From an uncultured candidate division WWE3 bacterium (GTDB lineage Bacteria; Patescibacteriota; WWE3; UBA101185; UBA10185): DNA of 64,000 bases. The position numbers were made by a program, and so were the translations under genes. Shown in pieces: positions 6,101 through 26,881 of the stretch; position 1 is the first letter of the stretch; each line of letters opens with the position of its first letter. The stretch lies in contig CAIRNR010000007.1 in the NCBI GenBank assembly GCA_903879985.1, positions 585,925 to 649,924 of the forward strand, given 5' to 3'. The notes under the pieces were generated by a model. It searched no databases and was not told the origin of the DNA. It saw only the letters and a program-made list of their open reading frames with translations.

Positions 6101-9100
6101 TTATATAAGAGCTGGATGCGAATAGGTTTGAATCTCCGGCCAAGCTTACGTCAACCTGACCATGTGTTCTGCCTGTAATTGTAACGGCAACATTGTAATC
6201 GCTGCTTGAGTCTATGACCATTGGTCTTGATACTGTATTAGTTCCCTCACCGCTATAATGTGTAAATCCGTCGGCATAATTGCCATTCCATCCTGCTTCT
6301 ACTGTCCAGTTGTCTGCACCTGTAAGTTCTGCGCCGACTTGTGATAAAAAGTCCAAAAATATATACGCATCGGAATCTTGAGTAGGTGTAATAACGATGT
6401 TTTCATTGTTTTGCGTTGGGGTAAGTGTGATTAAGGGCCAGTGATTATCGTTATTTATATTTACGGACTGACCGCCCATGGAAACTGTAAATGATCCTGC
6501 TGAAATTGATAAGTTTTCTATCTGGAGCTGATATGTATCACCCGAGACAACACTTGTAGGTAGATATAAAGATGTGGTTGTTCCGGTGGTATGTGTAAAT
6601 CCGTCATTGTAATTTCCGGACCAACCTGCAACCTCGGACCAATCGTTTTCGTCAAGAAGCTCTGGGCCAAGTTCAATAACTGAAATATTAGATATAGTAC
6701 CGTCAAAGTCTCCTGTTGGAGCGATGATGACTGGTCCGTTGTCATAATATGCTGTGAAAATACCACTATTTGTACCTGTCCAGCCCATACCACCGGTACC
6801 ATTACCTGCTACTGAAACGTCAAACGATCCTGCTGTGCGGTCGGTGACTGTAGCGCTTAGCATATATGCTGTGCCGGTAACAGCACTTGTTGGTCTGGTT
6901 AAAGGTGCGTTATATTTCATACCTGCAATATGTGTAAATCCGGTATTAAAGTCTCCTGTCCAACCTGAGTCCATATTCCATGTAGCACCTGTTGTCATTT
7001 CATCGCCTAATTCTTTTACAGATATACCTTCTATTTTTCCGTTAAAATCATCCGTTGGTGTTATTACCAATGGACTATTATCTTCGGTAGTTGTTAAGTA
7101 CATGATATTTTCACCTGTTTGAGCTGCAGATGTTGCACCACTTAAAGTTACTGTGAATGAACCCGTTGTGGTTCCTGAAGCAACTACGTGTACGAAATAG
7201 TTGCCACCCGAGGCTAAAGTCATAGGTCTAGATAATGCTTTTGTTCCATGGACATGTGTCCAGCCGTTTGTCCAGTTACCTGTCCAACCAGAATCCTTAT
7301 TCCAGTTTGCACTGTTTGTGAGTTCGGATCCTGCACCAACAGCTTTTACGGATATGTTCGAGATTGTGCCATTAAAGTCGCTTGATGGCGTAATGATAAG
7401 TGGCTCATTGTCATTAGCTGGTGTAAATACGCCATAACTTGTTCCGGTCCAGCCCATACCTTCATATGTAGCTCCGCCTACGGAAACGTCGAATGAACCT
7501 GCTGTGCGACCTGTAACTGTAACTGTTGTTAAGTAAGCTGTACCTGCTGTTAATGTTAAAGGTCTACTTATGCTATCTGTAATTCCTGCAACGTGTGTAA
7601 ATCCTGTGGCGTAATTTCCGGTCCAACCTGATAATCCCCATGCTGATTGCTGCAATAGATTTGCGCCTAAACTAATTGCAGAGGTAGTGATTGTTCCGTC
7701 AAAGTCACCACTTGGTCTAAATATTATTGGGGCACTATCACTAGATGCTGTAAATACGTCAAAACCCGATGCTGTCCAGCCATCCGAGCCACGTAAAAGA
7801 CCTGTTACTTGACCGCTGTAGTCTGTATAAACAGTACCTTGTGTACGGTTAGTAACGTTAACTGTTACTAAGGCAGTATTACCAATAGCTTCATCAAGTC
7901 TTCTGGATAAATCGGTACCTTCACCTGGGTTGTGGGTAAAGCCGTCGTTAAAGTTTCCATTCCAAGCAGAGCCCAATACCCAGAACTGATCAGAGAGTAA
8001 TTGATTTCCAACTTTTCTTACGTATATGTAATATATTGTTCCATCAAAGTCACTGGTTGGGGTGATAATTAATGCTCCGCTGGTTGCAGTAACATTTAAG
8101 GATACGGCGTTATTGGCTGTTTGTTCGGTTGAATAAGCTGAATCTGCTAATTTAACTGTAAATGAACCTGCAGTTCTATTTCTAACATCGAAGATTACCA
8201 AATAATCTGAACCACTTGTAAGTGTCATAGAGTTGGATGTAAGAGCCACAGTATCTCCTGCAGTATGTGTGAATCCGTCGTTATAGTTACCTGTCCATCC
8301 AGTTTGTGACGACCAATTACTGCCATTGGTCAATTCAGGCCCCACACCAACTGTTTTAACGGAGATATTAGTAATTTTTCCGTTAAAATCATTAGTTGGT
8401 GTAAATACTAATGGGGCACTATTGTCGTTAGCATTTAAGTCAAATGAACCTGAATCGGTAAATTCGCCTGATGTTTTTCCACCAAGTGAAATAATAAATG
8501 AACCTGCTGTTCTATCTGTTACGGTAAAGGATACTCTGTAGTCGATTCTTTCATATACAGTAACAGGGCGAGATAGGGTAAAGGTACCCGCGTAGTGACT
8601 AAATCCTGTGTTGTAATCGCCGGTCCAGCCAGATTCTTTTGTCCAGTTATTAGCATCAACAAGTTCTGGCCCAAGTACTGGCGCGTGTTCAAGAGCTACT
8701 GTTGAGGCAAGTGATAATTTTGAAACCGGATTGGTTGTACCAATTCCGACATTTCCGTTTAATAATGTTTGTTCGATATCGGTGTTTCCGATTACTATTT
8801 GATTGTTTCTTGTAGTAAATGCGCCGCTACCTAAGGCCATAGAGTTATTTACGTCGTGAGCTTGGAGTGGGTTAGATCCTGTCCAGTTACCTACAAATGT
8901 ATTATTAGTTCCGCTTGTAACAAGAAGCGCGCCGGCTGAGCCTACAACAACGTTTCCAACACCATTTAAGCTTGCTGCGGCTCCGTTACCCATAGCTACG
9001 TTGTATGTTCCAGTTGTATTTGCCGATAAAGCGCCTGCACCTACAGTGGTATTGTAATATCCCGTTGTGTTTGCATAGGAAGCTTGATATCCCACGGCGA

Positions 9101-12100
9101 CATTTTCCCAACCACCTGAGTTGTTAACTAATGCAGAAGTACCTATGGCAGTATTTTTTCCTCCGGTATTGTTGTTTAAGGCGTATGACCCAACGGCCGT
9201 ATTGTAGTAGTTGACTGTGTTTGTAGATAATGCACCGAAACCTAAAGCTGTATTTTCCCAGCCAGTTGTGTTGACGGCAAGTGCAGAAGTTCCTAAGGCT
9301 GTATTTTTCCCGGAGGTTGTGTTGCTCATAAGTGCACCACTTCCTATTGCTGTATTAAATTCACCTGTATTTGCATTCAATGCTTTCCAACCTACCGCGG
9401 TGTTTTCAGTTGATGTTTGGTTAGTAGAAAGTGCCCCGTAACCAAGTGCTGTGTTGTGAACGGCAGTTGTGTTGTTCATAAGTGCCCAATTACCAATTGC
9501 GGTATTTTCTGCTGCTACATTATTTTGTAATGCACTTTCACCTAACGCTACGTTGTTCCAGCCTTCTAAGTTTGAAGATAGTGCATTTATACCAACGGCT
9601 GTATTGTGATTACCTGTAGTGTTATTAACCATTGAGCCATTACCAATGGCGATGTTAAGTTCACCTGTTGTATTTGCATTTAATGCCATATAGCCAATGG
9701 CTGTATTAAAAGATGCTGTAGTGTTTTGAAGCGTGCCATTACCAATTGCGACATTGCGGATTCCCTCAATGTTGTTGGCGAGGGTCATGTCACCAATTGC
9801 AACGTTTTCAGATCCCAATGTGTTGGAAGCAAGAGATCTATATCCAATAGCAGTATCATAGCTACCAAGTGTATTACTTTCCATTGAGCCATTACCAATG
9901 GCAGTATTTCTTCCGCCTCCTGTATTTTGTAGCATTGTATGTGCTCCTACTGCCACATTCTCAGCACCTGTTGTATTAGATCCAAGTGATAGCCACCCTA
10001 AAGCGGTATTCCAGCTACCAATTGTGTTGCTTCCCAAGGCGTTATTACCCACGGCGACGTTACGTACACCCTCAGTATTTAGGAATAATGCTGCCTGGCC
10101 TACGGCCACATTTGCAAAACCTGTTGAGTTAGTTGCAAGTGTTTGCTCACCAAGGGCGGTGTTCCAACCTCCCGTTGTGTTGCTGACCAATGCACGATTT
10201 CCTACTGCCACGTTTCTTTCTCCTGTTGAGTTAATAAATAGTGCGGCTTGACCAATAGCCACATTGTTAACTCCAGTTGTATTAGTTGCAAGAGACTCAC
10301 TTCCGATGGCGGTATTCCAGCTGCCTGTAGTGTTGCTTACCAATGCGCGATTTCCTACTGCAACATTTGCTTCTCCGGTTGTGTTACCTTGCAAGGTCTG
10401 GTTACCAATAGCCACGTTGATAACTCCTGTGGTGTTATTTGCAAGACTGTAATTTCCAATGGCAGTATTCCAGCTACCAATTGTGTTGCTTGATAATGCC
10501 TCTGCACCAATGGCGGTATTCAAGTCTCCTATTGTGTTGCTGCCTAGAGCATCATTACCAACAGCAACGTTTCGTGTTCCGGTTGTATTATATGCAAGAC
10601 TGTTACCTCCAATGGCGGTATTCCAGCTTCCTGTAGTGTTGCTTGATAATGCATTTGTACCGACAGCAGTACCAAGGTCTCCGATTGTGTTGTTTTGTAA
10701 AGCATTATGACCAATCGCAACGTTTTGTGTTCCAACTGTGTTGAGGGAAAGGGCATAGTTACCTACGGCTGTATTCCAGCTTCCTGTAGTGTTGCTTAGT
10801 AACGCATCCACACCAATGGCAGTACCATATTCTCCTATTGTATTGTTGGCTAGGGCATTTTGACCAACAGCAACGTTCTGAATTCCAACTGTGTTGAGGG
10901 CAAGAGCGCGGTGACCTACTGCAGTATTCCATGAAGCGGTCGTATTTGAAATTAGGGCATCCACACCAATGGCAGTATTATATTCGCCTGTTGTGTTTGC
11001 AAATAGGGCGCTACTTCCAACGGCAACGTTATATCCGCCGCCATTATCGTTTTGTAATGCATCTGAACCGATAGCAGTATTCCAGCTTGATTCTTGATTA
11101 CTTCTTAGGGCGTTTACTCCCAAGGCAGTGTTGTTGCTTCCTAATGTATTGGCGCGCATAGCTGATGAACCAATAGCTGTATTTAAAGAACCATAGTTAT
11201 TTTCATGCAAGGCATCATAACCAATAGCGGTGTTGTTGTTTCCTTCTTGATTTTGTCTTAAAGTTTCAGCTCCAAGTGCAGTATTGGCTATACCTGTGGT
11301 GTTAGAACGCATTGCACTTGTACCTACTGCTGTATTTAAAATACCGCTGTTGTTTTCGTGTAAGGCAGAAAAACCTATTGCAACATTATTGTAACCTTCT
11401 TGATTTTGTCGTAAGGCTTCAACACCTATTGCAACGTTATTGTTTCCAAGTGTGTTGCTATACATTGCACCATCTCCAATAGCAATGTTGTATGTGCCGT
11501 TATTTTCGTGCAACGCATATGTACCTATGGCGGTGTTATAACTACCTTCGGAGTTCATTCTCAGCGCTTCAGTTCCCAATGCAATATTTTCATGACCGTT
11601 AGTATTATTATGTAGTGCGGAATCGCCCATAGCCAAGTTTAGATAACCATCGCGGTTTTCATTTAAGGATGCATTGCCAATACCTATGTTATCGTATCCA
11701 GTTGTGTTGTTGTAAAGTGCATTAACTCCTGTAGCTATGTTGTAGGAGCCTGTTGTGTTGTTGAATAATGCTCTGGTTCCTGTAGCCGTATTGTCGATTC
11801 CCGTTGTGTTGTAGTAAAGTGCGCTGGTTCCTGTAGCGACATTTCCATTTCCGCTTGTGTTGTAATACAAAGCGGTTGTACCAAGTGCGGTATTTTCATT
11901 TCCTGTGGTGTTGCTAAATAATGCTCTTGTACCTACAGCTAAGTTATTATAGCCAGTTGTGTTGGAGTAAAGCGTACTAGTTCCGAGTGCTACGTTTTCA
12001 CTGCCTGATGTGTTGTAGCGCATAGAATTGTCACCAATCGCTATATTTTCTTTTCCCACTGTATTTTCGAATAATGCTAAATTTCCCATGGCTACGTTGT

Positions 12101-15100
12101 TATAGCCAGTTGTATTGTTGTAAAGGGTACTAGTACCGGTTGCGGTGTTGTCAGTTCCCGTGGTGTTGCTATATAAAGCACCATCTCCAGTTGCAGTATT
12201 ATAGCTACCTGTAGTGTTGCTAAACAATGCCATACCTCCGATGGCGATATTTTTGTGACCTGATTTATTTGAATATAGCGCTTGCATTCCAATAGCCACA
12301 TTACTAGTTCCAGTAGTGTTATATCTAAGAGCGGACAACCCAATGGCTGTATTTTGTTCACCGGTTGTATTATCTTGCAAAGCGTATGCACCAATTCCTG
12401 TGTTGTATCTTCCTGTGGTGTTAAAGTCTAAAGCGTTTGTACCAAGAGCTACATTTAATGCTCCAGTTGTGTTATGTGAGCCAGAATTTTTGCCCATAAA
12501 TATATTTTCTTGTGCCGCTAGTGTAGATCGTAATTCAAAAGCTACGGCACCTGTACTGTCAATAATAGTGACTAGGGGCCCGTAAGTTCCGGTAATTGGT
12601 TTAACTGAAATATTTGAAATAGTACCGTCGAAATCGGATGTTGGTGTAAATACTAATGGGCCGTCTTGTGTTTCTATTACTGTATTCAAAGTATTTGTGT
12701 TGTTAATACTGCTGGATGTTACCCCGCCTAGGGTTACTGTAAATGAACCAGCTGTGCGTCCGGTAACGGTAAAAGATGTTTTGTAATTTTGGCCCTGATC
12801 AACCGACATGGTTCTCGAAATGGTATTGGTATTGCCAACTTCGTGTGTAAAGCCATCATTGTAGTTTCCGGTCCAACCAGCATCTTCTGTCCAATCATTG
12901 GAGTCAGTTATTTCAGTGCTTAAAGGTACTAAATGTATGTCTCTTATAAGTCCATTAACATTGGCTGATGGTACGATTGTGATTGGGGCATTGTCTGTAT
13001 TGGCGGTTAACATGCGATAAGTACTGCCTTGAATACCTTCTGTTCGTTGATTTCCGAGTCCTAATGAAAAATCACCTAGTGATAAGTTGTTAACTATTGC
13101 ATCAATTCGGTAGGTTGTTCCGGATAGGGTAGCGGCGGGTCTACTTAAAGGTGCATTTCCCACAACTCTTTGGAATCCGTCATTGTAATTACCTGTCCAG
13201 CTTGGTGTAGCTACCCAGTTGGTGTCGTTTAGTAATTGTGGTCCGTAATCTTTAACTGATACGTTAGTAAATGTACCGTTAAAGTCGGATGTAGGTGTTA
13301 ATACCAATCTTCCATTATCAATGCCTGGTTGGAAGCTGGCAGTTTGGCTATCATGCCAGAAGTTAAAATCGTCGCCACCAAAATTCACGTCGAATGCGCC
13401 ATTTGTTCGGTTTGCAACGGTTATTGCTACACGGAATAGTTGTCCTGCAGTATAACTTGGTACGCCAAATGATAAGGCATCTGTGTTTCCTGTTACGTGT
13501 GTTAATCCATCATTGTAGTTGCCAGTCCATGTTGTTGTGTCTGCTGGTGTACTCCAGGTGGCATAGTTCAACATGTCGTTAGCACTTGTTTGTCTAACGG
13601 ATATTCCTGTTATGGTTCCGACAAAGGTATCATCAGAAGAAATATGCAATGGGGCATTATCTGCCTTTGCAGTCAATTCATTTACTTGGTTTGGATAACC
13701 TCCTCGTGGGTACACTATATCAGTTGAATCTCCTAATGTAGTTGGTAGTTGTATTTGGGAGCTTCCTGTAGCTGACATTGTTATTTCATATGTATTTCCT
13801 GAGGTTACGCCCAATGCTTCTGTAAGCATGTAATCTGTACTATCAAGTGTGTGAGTAAAGCCATCGGTGTAATTTCCTGACCATGATGATGTAGCGGTCC
13901 AGTTTGTATCATCCACAAGATTTGTGTCTACTATTTGACGAATACTCATGTGTTGTACAGAACCATCAAAGTCATTAGATGGCGTAAACACCAATGGAAT
14001 ATTATCTCCGTCTGCGGTAACCTCTTGCATAAGACTTCCCCAGCCTCCAGTTATGCTGCCACTTGTTTGTCCTCCAAAAGTTTCTGTAACGGATCCGTGT
14101 GTTTCGTTAAATACATCAAAGCGTAGTAGATAATCCGCACCGGAAGTTACGCTAGTATTACCTGTAAGGACATCGGTGCCTCCTTCGTATGTATGTTGGT
14201 AAATGTAATCACTTCCAAAAGCGGTATGCCATTCGGATCCCATAGTTACGCTGTCTATATATTGTGGATCTAGTACGCGTTTAACTGAAATGTCCGAAAT
14301 GGTTCCGTCAAAGTTTGCCGATGGAACTATTACAATATTTTGATTATCGCTACCCGAAGTTGCTATAAGGTCTGACCCGGTGGAACTTACGTTATATCCA
14401 CCTGTATCACCTATATAAATCCTAAAGTATCCTTGAGTTCTTCCAGTCACCGTATATTGTACTAAGTAGGTGCCATTTCCTGCGGGTAGAGTAATTGGTC
14501 TGGAAATCGATCTTACATTGGCTGTATGTGTGAATCCGTCTGTAAAGTTTCCACTCCAGCCTGTACCTAGTGTCCAGGAAGCGTCGGTGGCAAGTTGTGG
14601 GCCTTTAAGTTTAAGATTATATGCCCATACATCCCCATCAAAATCGGAAGTTGGAGTTATAACAAGAGGTGTGTTACTGACTGTTGCCGCGAATTCAAGT
14701 GTGCAGTTGGTGTTATTGCTGCAAGTATGGGTAACACCTCCAAGTGATACTGTATAGGAGCCACCTGTAGCGGTCCAAGAACCAACTTCTATGGAATAGG
14801 AGTTTCCTGAAACCACTGAGGTTGGGTTACTTAGTGTAATAGTATTTCCGGTGCTATGTATAAATCCACTATCACCATCATAGGTCCATCCATTGAATGT
14901 GGGAACGCCTGTCCAAGTAGAAAAATTAAGTAAGTTTGTACCAGCACCATTTAGCGTTAAGGAATACAGGTCTACATAACTTCCATCAAAGTCAGCAGTA
15001 GGTGTGATTACTAAAGGAAGATTATTGCCACTCGCGGTGAATGTTAAAATGCATTCGGTGTCATTTTCACATGTTTGTGTTTGATCACCGAGAGTAACTG

Positions 15101-18100
15101 TAAAAGAACCTGCAGTTACATCATAAGAATCAATATCCAAATCGTAATTGTTTCCTTGTACTACGGTTGTAGTCGCTTCTAATGTTTGTGTACTACCCAC
15201 ATTATGCGTGAACCCATCGTTATAATTTCCATCCCATGACCATCCTGCTGCTGGTGCAGTTCCGGCTGAAACAATAGACCAATTATCTGCGGATGTAAGC
15301 TCTGTTGTGCCTACATATTTAAAGGATAGGTAAGTGTGACCATCATAATCTGCAGTAGGTGTTAATACCAATGACATATTGTCGGCGCTTGCAGTAAAGG
15401 TGTAGTAGCCTTCTGTGGTAAATGTATGGCTTTCGCTACCCAATGAAACCGTTATGGATCCAGCTGATCTACTTTGAGGATTAATATAAAATTCGTAGCT
15501 ACTGCCAGCTGAAGTTGGCACAGTAAATGTTAATGGGTTTGTTAAACCAATTGTGTGCGTAAAGTAACTGTAAACACTTCCGGTCCAACCTGGTTGTTCG
15601 GTCCAACCCGTATCATCAATAAGGTCTGCGCCAATTGATTTTACGGAAATGTTTGAAATGGTCCCGTTAAAGTCGTTAGTTGGTTTAAATATTAGAGCAC
15701 CGTTATCTGCAGTGGCAGTCATTGTGAAATTATCGGAGCCTGTAAATCCTGTTGTAGTGTGTCCGCCCAATTCTACGTCGAAGGATCCTGATGTTCTTCC
15801 TGCAACTGTAAATGATACTTGGTATGACACACCAGATGAGACGGACATGGTTCTAGATAGTGTAGTGTTACCTGTTGTGTGAGCAAATCCTGTTGCGTAG
15901 TCTCCGGTCCAACCTGAACTTAATGTCCAGTTATTTTCGTTAACAAGTTCATCACCTAATACTGGGGTTGCACTTTCTATATCTGCTGTTGAAGCTAAAG
16001 TAAGTTTTGATGTTGGGTTTGTAGTTCCAATACCAACATTACCACTGGCGTTTACAAATAATCCGCCTGGGTTAGAACCGCCCTTAAGCCATGTTGTTCC
16101 GGCTACGTCTAAGTTGGCTGATGGAGTGGATGTGCCAATACCCAAAGAGCTTGTGTTTTTATCGTAGAATAAGTTTTTGCTTCCGGTTGTAGAGTAGGTA
16201 TCATTCCAGAACAAAACTTGTCCTGCAATACCTGATCCTGAAACAACACCTGAAATTCCGGTTACTGTGTCACATTTCCAAACAGAGTTTATGGCGTCCC
16301 AAATTAAGATTTGGCTTGCTGAACAACCGCCTAATAATTTAAGTCCGTCGGCTGTTAATTCCATACCAGAATTACTTGATGTTGTTGATGTTGTTCCGGA
16401 TGTAGCAAGTTTAACGTCAATGTTACTGGCGTTAACTGAAATACCAGAACCTGCGCCGATTGCCATTGAGAAAGATCCGTTTGAACCTCCGCCGATAAGT
16501 CCTGAACCGGCTGTTACGGCTGTAGTTGCGTAGTTGCCGATGTTATTTGAATCCATTAATGTTCCTGATCTACCTGATAACAAATTAAGTTCTGTGGCTG
16601 TAGCTACAACTTGTGCACCACCAATAAAGAAGTTTGTGAAGTTAGCTGAACCTGCAACGTCGAGTTGATAGGCTGGGGCAGTTGTACCGATTCCAAGTTT
16701 TGCTGTTGCGTTATTCCAGTAAAGATTGTTGGAACTTGTTATTGTGCTTAAGCCGTTCCAGAATGTTAATTGGCCATTAACACCTGATCCTGATACTGAG
16801 CCATCAACGCCTGCTACTGAAGTGCATCTCCAAAGTGAAGCACCAAGATCCCAAGCTAATACTTGATTATTACCGCAACCGCCTAAAAGTCTTAATCCAT
16901 CTGCGGCTACTTCTAAACCTGAATTACCTGATGTAGAAGCTGTTGCACCTGCGGTGATTGCGTCGATTGTTATATCGTCTGCACTGATTGTGATACCGGA
17001 ACCTGCACCAATGTTTAAGGTTACGGCTCCGTTTGAACCACCGCCGATAAGTCCATTACCTGCGATTACTGATGTTGTGGCGTACATACCAAGGTTGTTG
17101 GTGTCGATTAATGAACCTGAGCGGCCTGTTAATAAGTTGATTTCACTGGTTGATGCAGTAGCACCAGAGAGTTTGTTAAGTTCTGTTGCTGTTGCAATAA
17201 CTTGTGAACCGCCAATGAATAGGTTGGTTGAGTTGATAGAGCCGGCGACTTCAAATTGGTAGGCTGGGTTGGTAGTGCCAATGCCTAGTTTTCCGGTTGC
17301 GTTATTCCAGAAAAGACTGTTTGATCCTGTTACGGAGTTTAGGCCATCCCAGAATGTTAATTGTCCTGCAACGCCAGAACCAGACACGTTACCTGTGCCT
17401 GCGCCGATTCCTGTAACTGAGTTACATTTCCAAGCGGCGTTTACGTTATCCCATGAGAGTATTTGGTTATTACTACAGCCACCAATCATTCTGAGTCCGT
17501 TGGCGGTTAGTTCTAAGCCAGAGTTAGATGATGTTACTGCTGTGTTACCTGAATTAGTAATTGCGATATCAATGTTATCTGAGTTAACTGTAATGCCTGA
17601 ACCTGCGCCGATGTTCATTGTTAGCGATCCGTTTGAACCACCGCCAAGTAAACCACTTCCGGCTGTTACTGCGGTTGTTACGTAATTAGTTGCGTTGTTT
17701 GTATCGAGTAGGGTACCGGTACGGCCAGTAAGTAAGTTGATTTCGGTTGTTGAAGCGGTAGCGCCTGAAAGTTTGTTAAGTTCGTTGGCAGTTGCAATAA
17801 CCTGTGTGCCACCGATGAACAAGTTGGTTGAGTTGATACTGCCTGCTACGTCTAGTTGATATGCTGGAGCGGTTGTACCGATACCTAATTTTCCAGATGC
17901 GTTATTCCAGAATAAGTTGTTATTTCCGATTACAGAATTTACTCCATTCCAGAAAGTTAGTTGTCCTACGGCACCTGATCCTGAAACGACGCCACCGATT
18001 CCTGTAACTGTACTGCATTTCCAAGTAGCTGAAACGTTGTCCCAAGCTAATACTTGATTAGATGAGCAACCACCTAACATTCTTACGCCACCGGCTGTTA

Positions 18101-21100
18101 ACTCTAAACCGGAATTGCTTGATGTAGCTGTTGTAGCTCCGGTTGAGGAAAGATTGATCTCAATATTGTCGGCGTTTGCTGTGATTCCGGAACCTCCGAC
18201 TACATTAATTGATAAAGCACCGTTTGAACCACCGCCGATTACACCGTTACCTGCGGTAACTGCTGTTGTAACGTAGTTAGTTGCATTGTTTGAATCGAGT
18301 AGTGTACCTGTACGGCCTGTTAATAAATTAATTTCAGTAGTTGATGCTGTAGCGCCTGAAAGTTTATTTAATTCTGTAGCAGTTGCTAGTACTTGAGTGC
18401 CACCAATGAACAAGTTGGTTGAGTTGATAGATCCTGCTACATCTAATTGGTAAGCTGGAGCAGTTGTACCGATACCTAATTTACCTGTGGAGTTATTCCA
18501 GAATAGGTTACTTGAACCGATTACAGAGTTTAAACCATTCCAGAAAGTTAATTGACCGGAAACACCAGAGCCTGAGACGTTACCTGTGCCTGCACCAATT
18601 CCTGTGACTGAACTACATTTCCAAGCGGCGGCACTACTATCCCACGAAAGAACTTGATTAGAAGAGCATCCGCCGATTAATTTGACTCCACCAGATGTTA
18701 ATTCCATACCTGAGTTACTTGATGTTGTAGAAGTTGTTCCTGATGTAGCAAGAGCTAATTCAATGTTGTCGGCGTTAACTGTAATTCCGGAGCCACCAAC
18801 GACATTTAATGTTAATGAACCAACGGAACCACCACCTGTTAAACCATTTCCTGCAGCAACTCCTGTTGTTGCGTAGCTAGCGACGTTGTTTGTATCAAGT
18901 AAAGTCCCTGATCGACCTTTGGTTAAACTAAGTTCCGCGGCACTGGCAGTAACTGCTGATCCACCGATGAATAGGGTAGACATGTTAGCAGAACCGGCTA
19001 CTTCTAATTGATAACCTGGGTTTGTGGTTCCAATACCAACTTTTCCTTGTACTAATAATCCGTTGGCAATTCCATTTCCTTCTTCATATGCTGCTGCGGT
19101 ACCAATATTTAATCCACCGTTGTTGCTCCATTTTCCAACTGAGCTTCCGTTTACAAAGAATTCCATACCATAGTTATTTTCGACACCAGATAAACCGATA
19201 CCTGCTGAAATATCGGCAGAGTTTGTTATGGACAATATAGAAGTATCCATATTGCCTTTAGCAGTTAAGACGCTGCTTGGTGATGAAGTGCCAATACCTA
19301 ATTTACCAGTGGAGTTGTTCCAGAATAGATTGTTACTACCTGTTGTGGAGTTTAAACCATTCCAGAATGCAACTTGTCCGGCAACTCCAGAACCCGACAT
19401 AACACCTGAGATTCCTGTAACTGTACTGCATTTCCATGTTGATGAAACGTTATCCCAAGAAAGAACTTGGTTTACTGAACATCCACCTAACATTCTTAAG
19501 CCACCTGCGGTTATTTCTAAACCTGAGTTAGAAGATGCTGATGAGGTAGCACCTGTTGAAGAAAGTGCGATTTCGATGTTGTTGGCATTAGCTGTAATAC
19601 CAGAACCTCCGACTACGTTAATAGTTAATGAGCCGTTTGAACCACCGCCGATAAGACCATTTCCTGCGGTTACTGCTGTGGTTGTGTAATTGGCGACATT
19701 GTTTGAATCCATTAATGTGCCTGTGCGACCTGTTAACAAATTAATTTCAGTGGTTGATGCAGTAGCACCAGAAAGTTTGTTAAGTTCTGTAGCAGTTGCA
19801 ATAACTTGAGTGCCACCGATGAACAAGTTGGTTGAATTGATGCTGCCTGCAACGTCAAGTTGATATGTTGGAGCAGTTGTACCAATACCTAATTTTCCAG
19901 TGGCATTGTTCCAGAACAAACTGTTAGATCCGATTACTGTGTTTAAGCCATTCCAGAAAGTAAGTTGTCCAGCAACACCAGAACCTGAAACATTACCTGT
20001 GCCAGCGCCAATTCCGGTTACTGAATTACATTTCCATGTGGAGTTAACACTATCCCAAGAGAGAACTTGATTAGATGAGCATCCGCCTAATAATCTCAAA
20101 CCAGAAGCTGTTAATTCCATACCAGAATTACTTGATGTTACAGAAGTTGTTCCTGTTGAGGTTAAGTTGATTTCAATATTGTTTGCGTTGGCTGTAATTC
20201 CGGAACCTCCAACTACGTCAATTGTTAGCGCTCCGTTTGAACCACCGCCGATTAAGCCATTTCCTGCTGCTACTGCTGTAGTAACGTGATTTGATGCATT
20301 ATTTGTATCTAGTAATGTTCCTGTACGACCTGTTAATAAGTTAATTTCAGTGGTTGATGCTGTAGCGCCAGAAAGTTTGTTTAGCTCTGCTGCTGTAGCA
20401 ATAACTTGTGAACCGCCGATAAATAAGTTTGTTGAGTTAATAGAACCTGCGACATCGAGTTGATAGGCTGGAGCGGTGGTGCCGATTCCAAGTTTTCCGG
20501 TTGAGTTATTCCAGAAAAAGTTGTTACTTCCTGTTGTGGCATTTAAACCGTTCCAGAATGCAACTTGTCCTGCAACGCCGGAACCTGACACGACTCCGCC
20601 GATTCCTGTGACGGTACTGCATTTCCATGTTGATGAAACGTTATCCCAAGCTAATACTTGGTTTACCGAACAACCGCCAAGTAATCTCAAACCACCGGCT
20701 GTTAATTCCATACCTGAGTTAGAAGATGTAGCTGATGTAGTTCCGGTTGTGGAAAGAGCTAAGTCGATACCATCGGCGCTAACTGTAATTCCGGAACCGC
20801 CACCAATGTTTAATGTTACTGATCCGTTTGAGCCGCCGCCTAGTAAACCGTTACCTGCTGCAACTGCTGTTGTTGCATAAGAGTTGACGTTGTTTGTATC
20901 AAGCAAAGTTCCGGATCTGCCTTTGGTTAAACTTAATTCAGTTGCGTTAGCAGTTACTGCTGAACCGCCAATGAATAGGGTAGACATGTTAGCAGAACCG
21001 GCAACTTCTAATTGGTAACCTGGGTTTGTAGTTCCGATTCCAACATTTGAACCACTTTGGAATAGGGTAGAGTTTTTAATTGTGTAGCTGCCGTTAAACA

Positions 21101-24100
21101 TTGAAAGGTAGCCGGAGTTTCCAGAACCTCCAATGGCTCCTCCGCTGCCTGTACCTACACAGTTTCCTGACGAATCACAGACTTTGTAGCCGTCTTGATA
21201 AATTGTTGTAGCACCCATATCTCCGTTAACAGATAAGTTTCTTGATGGAGCTGTTGTACCGATGCCAAGTTTGTTTCCCGCGTTATCCCAGAATAAATTA
21301 CTGGATCCAATAACGTTGTTAAGTCCATTCCAGAATGTTAGTTGACCAGCAACACCAGAACCTGAAACGTTACCAGTGCCTGCACCAATTCCTGTAACTG
21401 CTGTGCATTTCCAAGCAGAATTTACACTATCCCAAGCTAATACTTGATTAGAAGAACAACCGCCGAGCATTCTTAAGCCACCTGCTGTTATTTCTAAACC
21501 TGAGTTAGAAGATGTTGATGAGGTAGTACCAGTTGAGGAAAGTGCGATTTCAATATTGTTTGCGTTAGCTGTGATACCGGAACCTCCAACTACGTCTATT
21601 GTTAATGATCCGTTTGAGCCACCGCCGATTAAGCCATTTCCGGCTGCTACTGCTGTAGTAACGTGACTTGATGCATTGTTAGTATCTAGTAAGGTTCCTG
21701 TGCGGCCTGTTAATAAGTTGATTTCAGTGGTTGATGCTGTAGCACCAGAAAGTTTGTTAAGTTCTGTTGCTGTAGCGATAACCTGTGAACCACCGATAAA
21801 TAAGTTTGTACTATTAATAGAACCTGCGACATCCATTTGGTAGGCTGGAGCAGTTGTACCGATACCTAATTTTCCTGTGGCGTTATTCCAGAATAAGTTA
21901 TTGTTTCCAATTACAGTATTTAAACCATTCCAAAATGTTAATTGACCAGATACGCCAGACCCCGAAACGTTACCAGTACCGGCACCAATACCTGTGACTG
22001 AATTACATTTCCATGTGGAGTTACCACTATCCCAAGATAAGACTTGGTTAGAAGAGCAACCGCCCAAAAGTTTAAGTCCGTTAGCGGTAAGTTCCATACC
22101 TGAATTACTTGATGTTGTAGCAGTTGTACCTGATGTGGCAAGTATAAGATCAATGTTATCGGCGTTAACTGAAATACCAGAACCTGCGCCGATGTTTAAT
22201 GTTACTGATCCGTTTGATCCGCCGCCCAGTAAGCCATTGCCTGCAGCAACTGCTGTTGTTGCGTAGTTTGCAATATTATTAGTATCAACTAAAGTTCCTG
22301 TTCGACCTGTTAATAAGTTGATTTCTGTTGTAGAAGCGGTAGCTCCTGAGAGTTTGTTTAATTCGTTAGCAGTTGCAATAACTTGTGTGCCACCAATGAA
22401 GATATTAGTTGCATTGATAGATCCTGCTACATCTACCTGATAACCTGGGTTGGTTGTACCGATACCAAGTTTACTTGCGGTGTTGTTCCAGAAGAGGTTA
22501 CTTGAACCGATAACAGAGTTTAAACCATTCCAGAAAGTTAGTTGTCCTGCAACGCCAGAGCCTGAAACGTTACCAGTACCGGCGCCAATGCCTGTGACTG
22601 AGTTACATTTCCATGCTGAGTTAACGCTATCCCATGAAAGTACTTGGTTAGAAGAGCATCCGCCTAACATTCTAAGTCCGCCTGCGGTTAGTTCTAAACC
22701 AGAATTAGAGGATGTACTTGTAGATGTACCGGTGGAAGATAATCTAATCTCAAGGTTATCTGCGTTGGCCGTAATACCAGAACCTCCGGCTACATTAATA
22801 GTTAATGATCCGTTTGAGCCACCGCCGATAAGTCCGTTACCTGCCGCCACTGCTGTGGTTGTGTAGTTAGCTGCGTTGTTTGTATCTAATAGAGTACCTG
22901 TTCTTCCGGTTAAGAGATTAATTTCTGTGGTAGAAGCAGTAGCTCCTGAGAGTTTATTTAATTCTGCGGAAGTTGCCAAAACTTGAGTTCCCGCCAAAAA
23001 CAGGTTGGTCATGTTTGCGGAACCTGAGACATCTAATTGGTAAGAAGGAGCAGTTGTACCGATACCAAGTTTTCCAGTTGCATTGTTCCAGAACAAGTTG
23101 TTTGATCCTATTACATTGTTAATGCCATTCCAGAAAGTTACTTGGCCTGCAACGCCAGAACCTGAAACATTACCTGTACCCGCGCCAATGCCGGTAACAG
23201 AGTTGCATTTCCATGTAGAGTTAACACTATCCCAAGATAAGACTTGGTTGGATGAACAACCTCCGATGAGTTTAACGCCACCTGATGTGATTTCCATACC
23301 TGAGTTAGATGATGTTGTAGAGGTTGTACCTGATGTGGCTAAAGCTAATTCAATGTTGTCGGCGTTAACGGTGATGCCAGAACCTGCACCAATGTTCATT
23401 GTTAGTGAACCATTTGAACCACCACCTGTTAAACCATTACCTGCTGATACTCCTGTTGTTGCGTAGGTTGCGACATTAGCTGTATCTAAAAGTGTTCCTG
23501 TGCGACCTGTTAGTAAGTTAATTTCTGTAGTAGAAGCAGTAGCACCTGAAAGTTTGTTAAGTTCTGTGGCAGTTGCTATAACTCTTGTGCCACCGATAAA
23601 CAGGTTTGTACTATTAATAGAGCCGGCTACATCTAATTGATATGCTGGAGCAGTTGTACCGATACCAAGTTTTCCAGTTGCATTGTTCCAGAACAAACTG
23701 TCAGAACCGATAACGTTGTTGATACCATTCCAAAAAGTTAATTGACCACTAACACCTGAACCTGAAACATTACCAGTTCCTGCACCGATACCTGTAACAG
23801 CTGTGCATTTCCATGTTGCGGTACTACTGTTCCATGCCAAAACTTGATTTGTTAAACAGCCACCAAGTAATCTAACACCACCGGCGGTAAGTTCCAAACC
23901 TGAGTTGGAGGATGTTGCGGAAGTTGTGCCAGAGGATGACAAATTAATTTCAATATTATCTGCGTTTGCCGTAATGCCTGAACCAGAGCCAATGTTAACG
24001 GTTAGCACTCCGTTAGTACCACCACCTGTTAAGCCATTACCTGCTGTTACTCCTGTGGTGGAGTAGGTAGCAACGTTTGCTGTATCAAGTAAGGTTCCAG

Positions 24101-26681
24101 TTCTTCCTGTTAATAAGTTAATTTCTGTCGTTGAAGCAGTAGCCCCGGAAAGTTTGTTAAGTTCTGTGGCAGTAGCTGCAACTCTTGTTCCGGAAATGAA
24201 CAAGTTTGTCATATTAGCAGAACCGGCTACGTCAAATTGATAACCTGGGTTTGTGGTACCAATACCTAATTTACCTGTGGCATTATTCCAGAATAAATTG
24301 TTTGAACCTATGACAGTGTTTAATCCATTCCAGAAAGTAAGTTGTCCGGATGCGCCAGAACCTGACACATTGCCAGTACCTGCACCTATGCCAGTTACTG
24401 AATTACATTTCCATGCACCTGCTACGCTGTCCCATGATAGTACTTGATTAGATGTACAACCGCCTAACAAGCGAACGCCATCTGCTGTTAATTCCATGCC
24501 AGATACGGATGATGTTACTGAAGTTGTGCCAGTTGTAGCCAACTTTAGATCAATTGTGTCGGCGCTTGCTGTTATTCCAGAACCGGCCCCAATATTAATA
24601 GTTAATGATCCGTTTGAGCCACCGCCAATTAAACCGTTACCTGCTGTTACTGCGGTTGTGGCATAGTTGCTAACGTTCGAATTGTCTAAAAGTGTGCCAG
24701 ATCTACCATGAGTTAAACTAAGTTCTGTTGCTGTTGCATTTACTTGAGATCCGCTTATATATAATAGAGTAGTGTTAGTTGCTCCGTTGACATCTAAAGC
24801 AAATAAAGATGTTGGCACTCCGATACCTAATCTTCCGTATGTACCATCCCAATATAATCCACTAGCGCCCTTTACTGTTGTTGATGTGTCAAACATTGTC
24901 AATTGTCCCGCTACACCAGATCCTGTGATTGAAGTTGTACCAACTCCTGCGACAACTGTGCATTTCCAAACTGCATTTGCGGCATCCCATGACAAAACTT
25001 GATTATCGCCGCATCCGCCAATGATACGAACTCCGTCGTTTGCAACTTCTAAACCTGAGTTACTGGATGTAGTTGCTGAAACTCCCATGGTTAGTGCATC
25101 AATTGTTAAACTGTCACCTAATGGCGTAATACCTGGACCCGCTCCGATGTCTATATTAATAGCTCCGTATGAACCACCGCCGATTAAACCAAGTCCTGCG
25201 GTAACGGATGTAATAGCATGTGAGCCAATATTATTTGTAGTAATAATTGTTCCAGTAGCACCGTCTAGTAAATTAATTTCAGAAGCATTAGCTGTGACTT
25301 CTGTGCCGGATATAAATAGAGTGGTGGTGTTGGTTGAACCTGCTACATCTAAATCGTACATAGGAGTATGTGTGTGCACACCAATCTTACCATTTGTTGT
25401 TATTATCATTCTTTCTGTGTTGTTAGTTTTTAAAACTAAGGATTGATTATCTGTTGTTCCTAAGAAATCTACATTTGAATCTGTGCCAACGTTACCTGTT
25501 GTAACCCAAGATAATTTGGACAACAAAGAAGTTCCTGTTACCCAACTTGGTGAACTACCTGTAGACATCAATAAAGCCCCTGGGGCTGTTGAGATTGGTA
25601 AGGTGGTTAATGTTCCGGATCCGTTGGCATAAATCATGTCACCGGCTGTGTATGAAGTTATTCCTGTGCCTCCGTATCCTTGTTCTATTGTTTGACCTTG
25701 CCATGTACCATTTGTAATTGTGCCAACTTGTGTGATTTGTGTTTGAGGTACTGTTTGAATCGATCCGCCTTGTACCATTAATATGTCAGAATTTGTGGCA
25801 GTCATTTTTCCAATGTTAACGCCACCTAGTTTAGATACTTTAGTATGGAGTAAATCTATTCCTGTAACATCTCCTGCTGTGTGTAATGAAGTTTCTAATG
25901 TGTTCTTAGTTACGGCGTCGATACTAAGTAAGTTTTGCATTGTTCCTGCACCATTGAATGTTAAGTTTCCTGTGGTAACGGTTGTTGTTAATACGCCACC
26001 ATTTAAAGTTGAAAGTCCTTCTACTGTTAATCCTTCAGCTACATTTACGGTTTTCTTAAAATAGGAAGGAACGTTTGTATTAAAGACATAGTTTGTCACT
26101 TTATCTTGCGCAGCTAATACGGCAGCCATTGCAAATTTTTGTTCGTTTGTTGCTTGTGCATTTGCAGCTAGTACAGCTTGTCTATTTTGTTTTACAGTTT
26201 CTATTAAACTACTTACAAGTTTTTGAGAATTTTTATTTGTGCCCGCAAGTAGCAAAGTTGTGATGATAAATGCTATTACTAAATACTTGCCATTTGTTTT
26301 AGTTAAGGAAAATTTGGAACCATTACTTAAGTTAACTTTTCTGTTTTCAGGTACTTCGTTAATAATAGGAGTAGTTTCTTTTTGGGTGGATACTGGAGTA
26401 CTGCAACCCTGTAGTAATCTTTGTCTGTACATCTCTTTTAAGTTATCTTTTTTACATTTCTTTTGTTCGTCAACTAATTTTTTTAATTCGTTGATTTGTT
26501 CAACCCTATAGGCGCGGTGATTGTTGTCTAATCTTTCTGATGTAATTTTACCCTCAGACTCAAGTCTTCTTAATGATGATGGGGAAATTCCAAGGATATT
26601 AGATGCATCTAATACTTTGACATAATTTTTCTGTGTAAGGACGTATTTGTTTGTATTATTATCTTGGGCAGAGGCTTTCAT
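183..26681 (-). CDS. Giant (8,832 aa) modular cell-surface protein with tail-fibre-like repeats, 18-residue beta-helix repeats, beta-sandwich repeat arrays and a C-terminal intramolecular-chaperone (peptidase S74-like) domain; N-terminal MerR/excisionase-type HTH and signal-anchor TM helix
   Basis: Single uninterrupted ORF in the six-frame track. Internal repeats are visible in the translation: 'LFWNNATGKLGIGTTAPAYQLDVAGS...' about every 200 aa, 'NTAIGxxALxxNTTGxx' 18-mers, '...TPT.DFDGTISNISVK' about every 100-120 aa, and 'YSDSRLKENISYL' near the C-terminus. A hydrophobic helix 'YLVIAFIITTLLLAGT' lies at about aa 135-150. Confidence 0.85.
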   Translation of the reverse strand: MKASAQDNNTNKYVLTQKNYVKVLDASNILGISPSSLRRLESEGKITSERLDNNHRAYRVEQINELKKLVDEQKKCKKDNLKEMYRQRLLQGCSTPVSTQKETTPIINEVPENRKVNLSNGSKFSLTKTNGKYLVIAFIITTLLLAGTNKNSQKLVSSLIETVKQNRQAVLAANAQATNEQKFAMAAVLAAQDKVTNYVFNTNVPSYFKKTVNVAEGLTVEGLSTLNGGVLTTTVTTGNLTFNGAGTMQNLLSIDAVTKNTLETSLHTAGDVTGIDLLHTKVSKLGGVNIGKMTATNSDILMVQGGSIQTVPQTQITQVGTITNGTWQGQTIEQGYGGTGITSYTAGDMIYANGSGTLTTLPISTAPGALLMSTGSSPSWVTGTSLLSKLSWVTTGNVGTDSNVDFLGTTDNQSLVLKTNNTERMIITTNGKIGVHTHTPMYDLDVAGSTNTTTLFISGTEVTANASEINLLDGATGTIITTNNIGSHAITSVTAGLGLIGGGSYGAINIDIGAGPGITPLGDSLTIDALTMGVSATTSSNSGLEVANDGVRIIGGCGDNQVLSWDAANAVWKCTVVAGVGTTSITGSGVAGQLTMFDTSTTVKGASGLYWDGTYGRLGIGVPTSLFALDVNGATNTTLLYISGSQVNATATELSLTHGRSGTLLDNSNVSNYATTAVTAGNGLIGGGSNGSLTINIGAGSGITASADTIDLKLATTGTTSVTSSVSGMELTADGVRLLGGCTSNQVLSWDSVAGAWKCNSVTGIGAGTGNVSGSGASGQLTFWNGLNTVIGSNNLFWNNATGKLGIGTTNPGYQFDVAGSANMTNLFISGTRVAATATELNKLSGATASTTEINLLTGRTGTLLDTANVATYSTTGVTAGNGLTGGGTNGVLTVNIGSGSGITANADNIEINLSSSGTTSATSSNSGLELTAGGVRLLGGCLTNQVLAWNSSTATWKCTAVTGIGAGTGNVSGSGVSGQLTFWNGINNVIGSDSLFWNNATGKLGIGTTAPAYQLDVAGSINSTNLFIGGTRVIATATELNKLSGATASTTEINLLTGRTGTLLDTANVATYATTGVSAGNGLTGGGSNGSLTMNIGAGSGITVNADNIELALATSGTTSTTSSNSGMEITSGGVKLIGGCSSNQVLSWDSVNSTWKCNSVTGIGAGTGNVSGSGVAGQVTFWNGINNVIGSNNLFWNNATGKLGIGTTAPSYQLDVSGSANMTNLFLAGTQVLATSAELNKLSGATASTTEINLLTGRTGTLLDTNNAANYTTTAVAAGNGLIGGGSNGSLTINVAGGSGITANADNLEIRLSSTGTSTSTSSNSGLELTAGGLRMLGGCSSNQVLSWDSVNSAWKCNSVTGIGAGTGNVSGSGVAGQLTFWNGLNSVIGSSNLFWNNTASKLGIGTTNPGYQVDVAGSINATNIFIGGTQVIATANELNKLSGATASTTEINLLTGRTGTLVDTNNIANYATTAVAAGNGLLGGGSNGSVTLNIGAGSGISVNADNIDLILATSGTTATTSSNSGMELTANGLKLLGGCSSNQVLSWDSGNSTWKCNSVTGIGAGTGNVSGSGVSGQLTFWNGLNTVIGNNNLFWNNATGKLGIGTTAPAYQMDVAGSINSTNLFIGGSQVIATATELNKLSGATASTTEINLLTGRTGTLLDTNNASSHVTTAVAAGNGLIGGGSNGSLTIDVVGGSGITANANNIEIALSSTGTTSSTSSNSGLEITAGGLRMLGGCSSNQVLAWDSVNSAWKCTAVTGIGAGTGNVSGSGVAGQLTFWNGLNNVIGSSNLFWDNAGNKLGIGTTAPSRNLSVNGDMGATTIYQDGYKVCDSSGNCVGTGSGGAIGGSGNSGYLSMFNGSYTIKNSTLFQSGSNVGIGTTNPGYQLEVAGSANMSTLFIGGSAVTANATELSLTKGRSGTLLDTNNVNSYATTAVAAGNGLLGGGSNGSVTLNIGGGSGITVSADGIDLALSTTGTTSATSSNSGMELTAGGLRLLGGCSVNQVLAWDNVSSTWKCSTVTGIGGVVSGSGVAGQVAFWNGLNATTGSNNFFWNNSTGKLGIGTTAPAYQLDVAGSINSTNLFIGGSQVIATAAELNKLSGATASTTEINLLTGRTGTLLDTNNASNHVTTAVAAGNGLIGGGSNGALTIDVVGGSGITANANNIEINLTSTGTTSVTSSNSGMELTASGLRLLGGCSSNQVLSWDSVNSTWKCNSVTGIGAGTGNVSGSGVAGQLTFWNGLNTVIGSNSLFWNNATGKLGIGTTAPTYQLDVAGSINSTNLFIGGTQVIATATELNKLSGATASTTEINLLTGRTGTLMDSNNVANYTTTAVTAGNGLIGGGSNGSLTINVVGGSGITANANNIEIALSSTGATSSASSNSGLEITAGGLRMLGGCSVNQVLSWDNVSSTWKCSTVTGISGVMSGSGVAGQVAFWNGLNSTTGSNNLFWNNSTGKLGIGTSSPSSVLTAKGNMDTSILSITNSADISAGIGLSGVENNYGMEFFVNGSSVGKWSNNGGLNIGTAAAYEEGNGIANGLLVQGKVGIGTTNPGYQLEVAGSANMSTLFIGGSAVTASAAELSLTKGRSGTLLDTNNVASYATTGVAAGNGLTGGGSVGSLTLNVVGGSGITVNADNIELALATSGTTSTTSSNSGMELTSGGVKLIGGCSSNQVLSWDSSAAAWKCSSVTGIGAGTGNVSGSGVSGQLTFWNGLNSVIGSSNLFWNNSTGKLGIGTTAPAYQLDVAGSINSTNLFIGGTQVLATATELNKLSGATASTTEINLLTGRTGTLLDSNNATNYVTTAVTAGNGVIGGGSNGALSINVVGGSGITANADNIEINLSSTGATTATSSNSGLELTAGGVRMLGGCSSNQVLAWDNVSATWKCSTVTGIGGVVSGSGAVGQLTFWNGVNSVIGNNNLFWNNASGKLGIGTTAPAYQLDVAGSINSTNLFIGGTQVIATANELNKLSGATASTTEINLLTGRTGTLLDTNNATNYVTTAVTAGSGLLGGGSNGSLTMNIGAGSGITVNSDNIDIAITNSGNTAVTSSNSGLELTANGLRMIGGCSNNQILSWDNVNAAWKCNSVTGIGAGTGNVSGSGVAGQLTFWDGLNSVTGSNSLFWNNATGKLGIGTTNPAYQFEVAGSINSTNLFIGGSQVIATATELNKLSGATASTSEINLLTGRSGSLIDTNNLGMYATTSVIAGNGLIGGGSNGAVTLNIGAGSGITISADDITIDAITAGATASTSGNSGLEVAADGLRLLGGCGNNQVLAWDLGASLWRCTSVAGVDGSVSGSGVNGQLTFWNGLSTITSSNNLYWNNATAKLGIGTTAPAYQLDVAGSANFTNFFIGGAQVVATATELNLLSGRSGTLMDSNNIGNYATTAVTAGSGLIGGGSNGSFSMAIGAGSGISVNASNIDVKLATSGTTSTTSSNSGMELTADGLKLLGGCSASQILIWDAINSVWKCDTVTGISGVVSGSGIAGQVLFWNDTYSTTGSKNLFYDKNTSSLGIGTSTPSANLDVAGTTWLKGGSNPGGLFVNASGNVGIGTTNPTSKLTLASTADIESATPVLGDELVNENNWTLSSGWTGDYATGFAHTTGNTTLSRTMSVSSGVSYQVSFTVAGRTSGSFDVELGGHTTTGFTGSDNFTMTATADNGALIFKPTNDFNGTISNISVKSIGADLIDDTGWTEQPGWTGSVYSYFTHTIGLTNPLTFTVPTSAGSSYEFYINPQSRSAGSITVSLGSESHTFTTEGYYTFTASADNMSLVLTPTADYDGHTYLSFKYVGTTELTSADNWSIVSAGTAPAAGWSWDGNYNDGFTHNVGSTQTLEATTTVVQGNNYDLDIDSYDVTAGSFTVTLGDQTQTCENDTECILTFTASGNNLPLVITPTADFDGSYVDLYSLTLNGAGTNLLNFSTWTGVPTFNGWTYDGDSGFIHSTGNTITLSNPTSVVSGNSYSIEVGSWTATGGSYTVSLGGVTHTCSNNTNCTLEFAATVSNTPLVITPTSDFDGDVWAYNLKLKGPQLATDASWTLGTGWSGNFTDGFTHTANVRSISRPITLPAGNGTYLVQYTVTGRTQGYFRIYIGDTGGYNVSSTGSDLIATSGSDNQNIVIVPSANFDGTISDISVKRVLDPQYIDSVTMGSEWHTAFGSDYIYQHTYEGGTDVLTGNTSVTSGADYLLRFDVFNETHGSVTETFGGQTSGSITGGWGSLMQEVTADGDNIPLVFTPSNDFDGSVQHMSIRQIVDTNLVDDTNWTATSSWSGNYTDGFTHTLDSTDYMLTEALGVTSGNTYEITMSATGSSQIQLPTTLGDSTDIVYPRGGYPNQVNELTAKADNAPLHISSDDTFVGTITGISVRQTSANDMLNYATWSTPADTTTWTGNYNDGLTHVTGNTDALSFGVPSYTAGQLFRVAITVANRTNGAFDVNFGGDDFNFWHDSQTASFQPGIDNGRLVLTPTSDFNGTFTNVSVKDYGPQLLNDTNWVATPSWTGNYNDGFQRVVGNAPLSRPAATLSGTTYRIDAIVNNLSLGDFSLGLGNQRTEGIQGSTYRMLTANTDNAPITIVPSANVNGLIRDIHLVPLSTEITDSNDWTEDAGWTGNYNDGFTHEVGNTNTISRTMSVDQGQNYKTSFTVTGRTAGSFTVTLGGVTSSSINNTNTLNTVIETQDGPLVFTPTSDFDGTISNISVKPITGTYGPLVTIIDSTGAVAFELRSTLAAQENIFMGKNSGSHNTTGALNVALGTNALDFNTTGRYNTGIGAYALQDNTTGEQNTAIGLSALRYNTTGTSNVAIGMQALYSNKSGHKNIAIGGMALFSNTTGSYNTATGDGALYSNTTGTDNTATGTSTLYNNTTGYNNVAMGNLALFENTVGKENIAIGDNSMRYNTSGSENVALGTSTLYSNTTGYNNLAVGTRALFSNTTGNENTALGTTALYYNTSGNGNVATGTSALYYNTTGIDNTATGTRALFNNTTGSYNIATGVNALYNNTTGYDNIGIGNASLNENRDGYLNLAMGDSALHNNTNGHENIALGTEALRMNSEGSYNTAIGTYALHENNGTYNIAIGDGAMYSNTLGNNNVAIGVEALRQNQEGYNNVAIGFSALHENNSGILNTAVGTSAMRSNTTGIANTALGAETLRQNQEGNNNTAIGYDALHENNYGSLNTAIGSSAMRANTLGSNNTALGVNALRSNQESSWNTAIGSDALQNDNGGGYNVAVGSSALFANTTGEYNTAIGVDALISNTTASWNTAVGHRALALNTVGIQNVAVGQNALANNTIGEYGTAIGVDALLSNTTGSWNTAVGNYALSLNTVGTQNVAIGHNALQNNTIGDLGTAVGTNALSSNTTGSWNTAIGGNSLAYNTTGTRNVAVGNDALGSNTIGDLNTAIGAEALSSNTIGSWNTAIGNYSLANNTTGVINVAIGNQTLQGNTTGEANVAVGNRALVSNTTGSWNTAIGSESLATNTTGVNNVAIGQAALFINSTGERNVAVGNRALVSNTTGGWNTALGEQTLATNSTGFANVAVGQAALFLNTEGVRNVAVGNNALGSNTIGSWNTALGWLSLGSNTTGAENVAVGAHTMLQNTGGGRNTAIGNGSMESNTLGSYDTAIGYRSLASNTLGSENVAIGDMTLANNIEGIRNVAIGNGTLQNTTASFNTAIGYMALNANTTGELNIAIGNGSMVNNTTGNHNTAVGINALSSNLEGWNNVALGESALQNNVAAENTAIGNWALMNNTTAVHNTALGYGALSTNQTSTENTAVGWKALNANTGEFNTAIGSGALMSNTTSGKNTALGTSALAVNTTGWENTALGFGALSTNTVNYYNTAVGSYALNNNTGGKNTAIGTSALVNNSGGWENVAVGYQASYANTTGYYNTTVGAGALSANTTGTYNVAMGNGAAASLNGVGNVVVGSAGALLVTSGTNNTFVGNWTGSNPLQAHDVNNSMALGSGAFTTRNNQIVIGNTDIEQTLLNGNVGIGTTNPVSKLSLASTVALEHAPVLGPELVDANNWTKESGWTGDYNTGFSHYAGTFTLSRPVTVYERIDYRVSFTVTDRTAGSFIISLGGKTSGEFTDSGSFDLNANDNSAPLVFTPTNDFNGKITNISVKTVGVGPELTNGSNWSSQTGWTGNYNDGFTHTAGDTVALTSNSMTLTSGSDYLVIFDVRNRTAGSFTVKLADSAYSTEQTANNAVSLNVTATSGALIITPTSDFDGTIYYIYVRKVGNQLLSDQFWVLGSAWNGNFNDGFTHNPGEGTDLSRRLDEAIGNTALVTVNVTNRTQGTVYTDYSGQVTGLLRGSDGWTASGFDVFTASSDSAPIIFRPSGDFDGTITTSAISLGANLLQQSAWGLSGWTGNYATGFTHVAGITDSISRPLTLTAGTAYLTTVTVTGRTAGSFDVSVGGATYEGMGWTGTSYGVFTPANDNEPLIITPSSDFNGTISNISVKAVGAGSELTNSANWNKDSGWTGNWTNGWTHVHGTKALSRPMTLASGGNYFVHVVASGTTTGSFTVTLSGATSAAQTGENIMYLTTTEDNSPLVITPTDDFNGKIEGISVKELGDEMTTGATWNMDSGWTGDFNTGFTHIAGMKYNAPLTRPTSAVTGTAYMLSATVTDRTAGSFDVSVAGNGTGGMGWTGTNSGIFTAYYDNGPVIIAPTGDFDGTISNISVIELGPELLDENDWSEVAGWSGNYNDGFTHTTGTTTSLYLPTSVVSGDTYQLQIENLSISAGSFTVSMGGQSVNINNDNHWPLITLTPTQNNENIVITPTQDSDAYIFLDFLSQVGAELTGADNWTVEAGWNGNYADGFTHYSGEGTNTVSRPMVIDSSSDYNVAVTITGRTHGQVDVSLAGDSNLFASSSYITINNLDTNGPLILTPTDDFDGTVKISVRQTGNRSFLPGNDWTQQQNWTGNYASGFTHVTGSTADLTKPTSAAADTEYYVSYTVTGRTAGSFTVDLGDDYINTVEGSGTIVLNPYNNDALLKITPTADFDGTISNISVRLKGSDMVDENDWTSDSGWSGDNSTGFVHAGNTNVMTMPMTVTQYDKYLVAATITGRTAGSFGIVFAGNPFWFWHDSQTATFEALVEDGPFEIHPDADFNGLMKFSIKHLGAELVDTNDWTAETPWTGDYNAGFTHTPGTEVYTLSRNMDITAGNSYKTTFTVSGRTQGSFTIGLGGTTSGSFTDTNTYVNTATTTGPLIITPTADFDGTISAISTLPVGSELTDSSSWVEASDWSGTYATGFTHTAGEGTMTVYRDMNSINAANAYIISFTITGRTAGSFTIGLGGTTSSSYIETGSIELTTVSNNGRLIFTPTNDFDGKISNISVKHIDSRTYAAIFSISDSTNAVNFEIRSTIAAMNNTFIGVGAGAAYTGGDNNIAVGNHALGSNTTGNRNSAFGSYALIMNTGGEQNTALGLSALYSNTVGSQNTAVGGYALNSNTTGNLNNAFGDYALFSNTTASYNSAFGLNALYHNTTGENNNAFGDYALTANTTGYDNVAFGKEALAANTTGIANVAVGNGALWSNLTGERNTAIGTSALSNNTTAWENVAIGTYSLLSNTTGGQNVAIGAFALNNNISGFSNVAIGKEALFYNVSGGSNTAIGNQALYQNTDGSWNVGIGLNALSNNKGSRNTSIGVHSAEGISSGESNTFIGAYVATNALQKLDVQNSIAIGDNTFTTADNQVVLGNDSISTTLLKGNVGIGTTNPTTKLAFASTEDLEHAPILGAEMTDATGWTKESGWTGNYNTGFAHSSGTFTLSRPMTVATTNTYRVSFTVTDRTAGSVNVTLGDHVTSGITDTTVFNTTIDTDNAPLIFTPTTNFNGTISNISVRLVGADLVDENGWVMQSGWTGNYNTGFAHSSGTFALSKEMSIDVGNVYRIDVTVAGATAGTYSIGLGGETAAGYSGTGTATLTASVKNGPLIFTPTDDFNGTITAINVRIVGSENLDEYAWTVGSSWDGNFNDGFIHAAGDGTDTISRPVGTTIDESYLVSFIVTGRTAGSFTVGLGGQTSGTLTDSISYVVKATEDKGPLIFTPTDDFDGTISAISVKTLSANLTNDTLWSTESDWSGNFTDGFIHAAGSTFTLSRTVATDSGLSYLVSFTIADQTAGSVVLDMQDAPSGSYSTDNSYSVILTSYDYDEPLTFTPTADFDGTISGISVLPLGSESTSSANWTMASDWTGNYNDGFTHTAGEGTFTVFNNLPLTNGESYIVKFSTTGRTNGDVSLSLGGTTSADSPYSYNSNFIADITVTDNTKPLVFTPTSDYDGTISNISVKHIISRKYNALVSVIDSTGALNFEIRSSTAAKNNMYIGVDAGSHTTTGESNLALGKYSLAAVTNGYNNTAIGLNAMLSTTTGAYNTALGINALENMVNSSGNVAIGESTLNSLTDGAYNTAIGMNAGAAITTGENNIFIGYAGFMGNQKVDAMNSIGIGNGVSTTKDNQVILGNTSIVETLLNGNVGIGTTNPNYTLTVNGQPAANGFTAFTNYSDSRLKENISYLSGGYLDKIMQLQPSTFNYNALSGYDDKTRARTITGFIAQDLQKVFPDMVGKTTIKGTEYLDTNLSALQVYLVKAMQELNAKVDSQNAANAELARELGLTDESSQSSETSETSQSSSSAKASNTILDTITKAIADFKDTIGTLGMTTIKDENGNDVLRVTSDLSVMGNATFADVKITGNLMAGSIKIDTIANAINVLGASCYSESTDITNKALCESQTLYLQSKMAGNVDMFNGKIVLEPNGTINAKVVAAEQYKVKHNTNGNDSIGSAQINTGDKAVTINSSLIKTDSKVFVTATSTTNGQMLVVSQKNEGTSFTVSVDNSVDTDVKFDWWIVNVE
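950..1260 (-). other. Intramolecular chaperone / auto-proteolytic domain (peptidase S74-like, as at the C-termini of phage tail fibres and endosialidases); Ser-Lys dyad motif S-D-S-R-L-K encoded at 1212..1229
   Basis: Translation '...FTNYSDSRLKENISYLSGGYLDKIMQLQPSTFNYNALSGYDDKTRARTITGFIAQDLQKVFPDMV...LSALQVYLVKAMQELNAKVD' matches the hallmark 'sDxRLKxnI' signature of this family. Confidence 0.6.
1280..1800 (-). repeat. Third short NxAxG 18-mer block ending in 'DNQVILGNTSIVETLLNGNVGIGTTNPNYTLTV' (module 3 junction)
   Basis: Translation 'FEIRSSTAAKNNMYIGVDAGSHTTTGESNLALGKYSLAAVTNGYNNTAIGLNAMLSTTTGAYNTALG...'. Confidence 0.55.
1800..3560 (-). repeat. Beta-sandwich-like domain array (module 3, about 6 copies)
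   Basis: Recurring 'GW.TESGWTGNYNTGFAHSSGTFTLSR...RTAGS..V.LGG...PL(I/V)FTPT.DFDGTIS.ISV' units. Confidence 0.5.
3600..4640 (-). repeat. Second, shorter 18-residue NxAxG beta-helix repeat block (module 2)
   Basis: 'AVNFEIRSTIAAMNNTFIGVGAGAAYTGGDNNIAVGNHALGSNTTGNRNSAFGSYALIMNTGGEQNTALG...' ending in '...DNQVVLGNDSISTTLLKGNVGIGTTNPTTKLAFAS'. Confidence 0.55.
4640..8700 (-). repeat. Beta-sandwich-like domain array (module 2, roughly 12-15 copies), preceded by a 'NQIVIGNTDIEQTLLNGNVGIGTTNPVSKLSLAS' junction
   Basis: Same '...TPT.DFDGTISNISVK' periodic motif; boundaries approximate. Confidence 0.5.
8870..12540 (-). repeat. Long block (about 1,200 aa) of 18-residue 'N(T/V)A(I/V)G.xAL.xNTTG.x' repeats; predicted parallel beta-helix/fibre shaft (module 1)
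   Basis: Strict 18-aa (54-nt) periodicity in the translation (e.g. 'YNTAIGAYALQDNTTGEQNTAIGLSALRYNTTGTSNVAIGMQALYSN...'). Mirrored by periodic 'ccaatagc.gtatt' in the DNA. Confidence 0.6.
12540..16020 (-). repeat. Beta-sandwich-like ~100-120-aa domain array (module 1), about 10 copies, each ending '...(I/V)TPT.DF(D/N)GTIS(N/D)ISVK'
   Basis: Recurring pattern 'W(T/S)...GW(T/S)GNY.DGF(T/A)H..G.T..LSR......G..Y...F.V.GRT.GSF.V.LGG...' in the translation; boundaries approximate. Confidence 0.55.
16100..25000 (-). repeat. About 15 tandem, highly similar ~600-nt (200-aa) coding repeats of the tail-fibre-like unit (...KLGIGTTAPAYQLDVAGSINSTNLFIGG...ELNKLSGATASTTEINLLTGRTGTLLD...GGCSSNQVLSWDS...WKC..VTGIGAGTGNVSGSG..GQLTFWNG)
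   Basis: The repeat period is visible at nucleotide level (e.g. '...gatgaacaagttggttgagttgata...' in 17814-17845 and '...aatgaacaagttggttgagttgatag...' in 18407-18438, about 590 nt apart). Near-identical plus-strand shadow ORFs recur (17269..17685, 20476..20880, 22450..22866, 23083..23466). Boundaries are approximate. Confidence 0.7.
26480..26630 (-). other. MerR/excisionase-type helix-turn-helix segment at the extreme N-terminus of the giant ORF (aa ~20-65), about 70 aa upstream of the signal-anchor helix
   Basis: Translation 'YVKVLDASNILGISPSSLRRLESEGKITSERLDNNHRAYRVEQINELKKL', resembling the MerR N-terminal HTH ('...RAYRVEQINEL' vs 'R.Y...di..L'). Confidence 0.45.
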
Positions 26682-26861: not shown

Positions 26862-26881
26862 TGTACAATACAATTTGTACA
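26862..26881. promoter_or_regulatory. Perfect 7-bp inverted repeat TGTACAA-N6-TTGTACA in the divergent promoter region between the giant gene and the ATP synthase operon; candidate operator
   Basis: Read directly: tgtacaa (26862-26868), tacaat, ttgtaca (26875-26881), in a 340-bp AT-rich intergenic region. Confidence 0.35.

What the first reader, a model, noticed from the sequence alone, without database searches (positions are those of the whole stretch)
26225..26681. MerR/excisionase-type HTH encoded in-frame at the N-terminus of the giant surface protein
The first about 70 residues ('NILGISPSSLRRLESEGKITSERLDNNHRAYRVEQINELKKL') look like a MerR-family DNA-binding domain. They are followed in-frame, with no stop codon, by a linker, a signal-anchor helix and then 8,600 extracellular residues. 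One reading is a membrane-tethered one-component regulator fused to its own cargo. The other is an unrecognised separate small regulator whose stop codon was lost, with the true giant-protein start at M84 'MYRQRLLQ' (ATG at 26432..26430). A perfect inverted repeat TGTACAA-N6-TTGTACA at 26862..26881 in the upstream divergent promoter is a plausible cognate operator.
Basis: partly seen in the sequence, partly recalled or inferred. Interest (0 to 1): 0.55.

Follow-up and report, generated by a model that had tools for sequence, protein, structure and literature searches.

The report
DNA-binding foot on giant surface fibre
The 8,832-residue membrane-anchored surface fibre of this ultra-small (CPR/Patescibacteria) bacterium really does begin with a cytoplasmic MerR-type DNA-binding domain, and this fusion is conserved across a large, apparently undescribed protein family, which suggests a direct physical link between the cell's DNA and its surface fibres.

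Summary
Residues 20-59 of the 8,832-aa ORF (183..26681, minus strand) pass Pfam's MerR threshold. They model with pLDDT >93 as a winged helix-turn-helix closest to RacA, BldC and Xis. A variable Lys-rich linker, one TM helix (aa 128-147) and a huge ectodomain with a C-terminal S74 self-cleaving chaperone domain follow in frame.

The "lost stop codon / true start at M84" reading is refuted. All 16 related genome loci (candidate division WWE3 and other Patescibacteria) and dozens of metagenomic relatives keep the HTH in frame with the TM. The ORF always opens just after an upstream stop with a conserved M-x3-A-Q start. M84 occurs in 1 of 23 aligned sequences. The wHTH is the best-conserved N-terminal segment (52% against 12% for the linker). 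Many relatives carry 2-8 tandem HTHs before the TM.

The proposed operator (TGTACAA-N6-TTGTACA) exists but is at chance level (52% of shuffles) and is not conserved. What is conserved is a sigma-70-like promoter with a 17-bp spacer, an upstream box, and a hairpin at the 5' end of the leader.

My best reading is a cytoplasmic DNA-binding "foot" that tethers the fibre base to DNA. Whether this is architectural or regulatory is unresolved. I found no description of this architecture in the literature.
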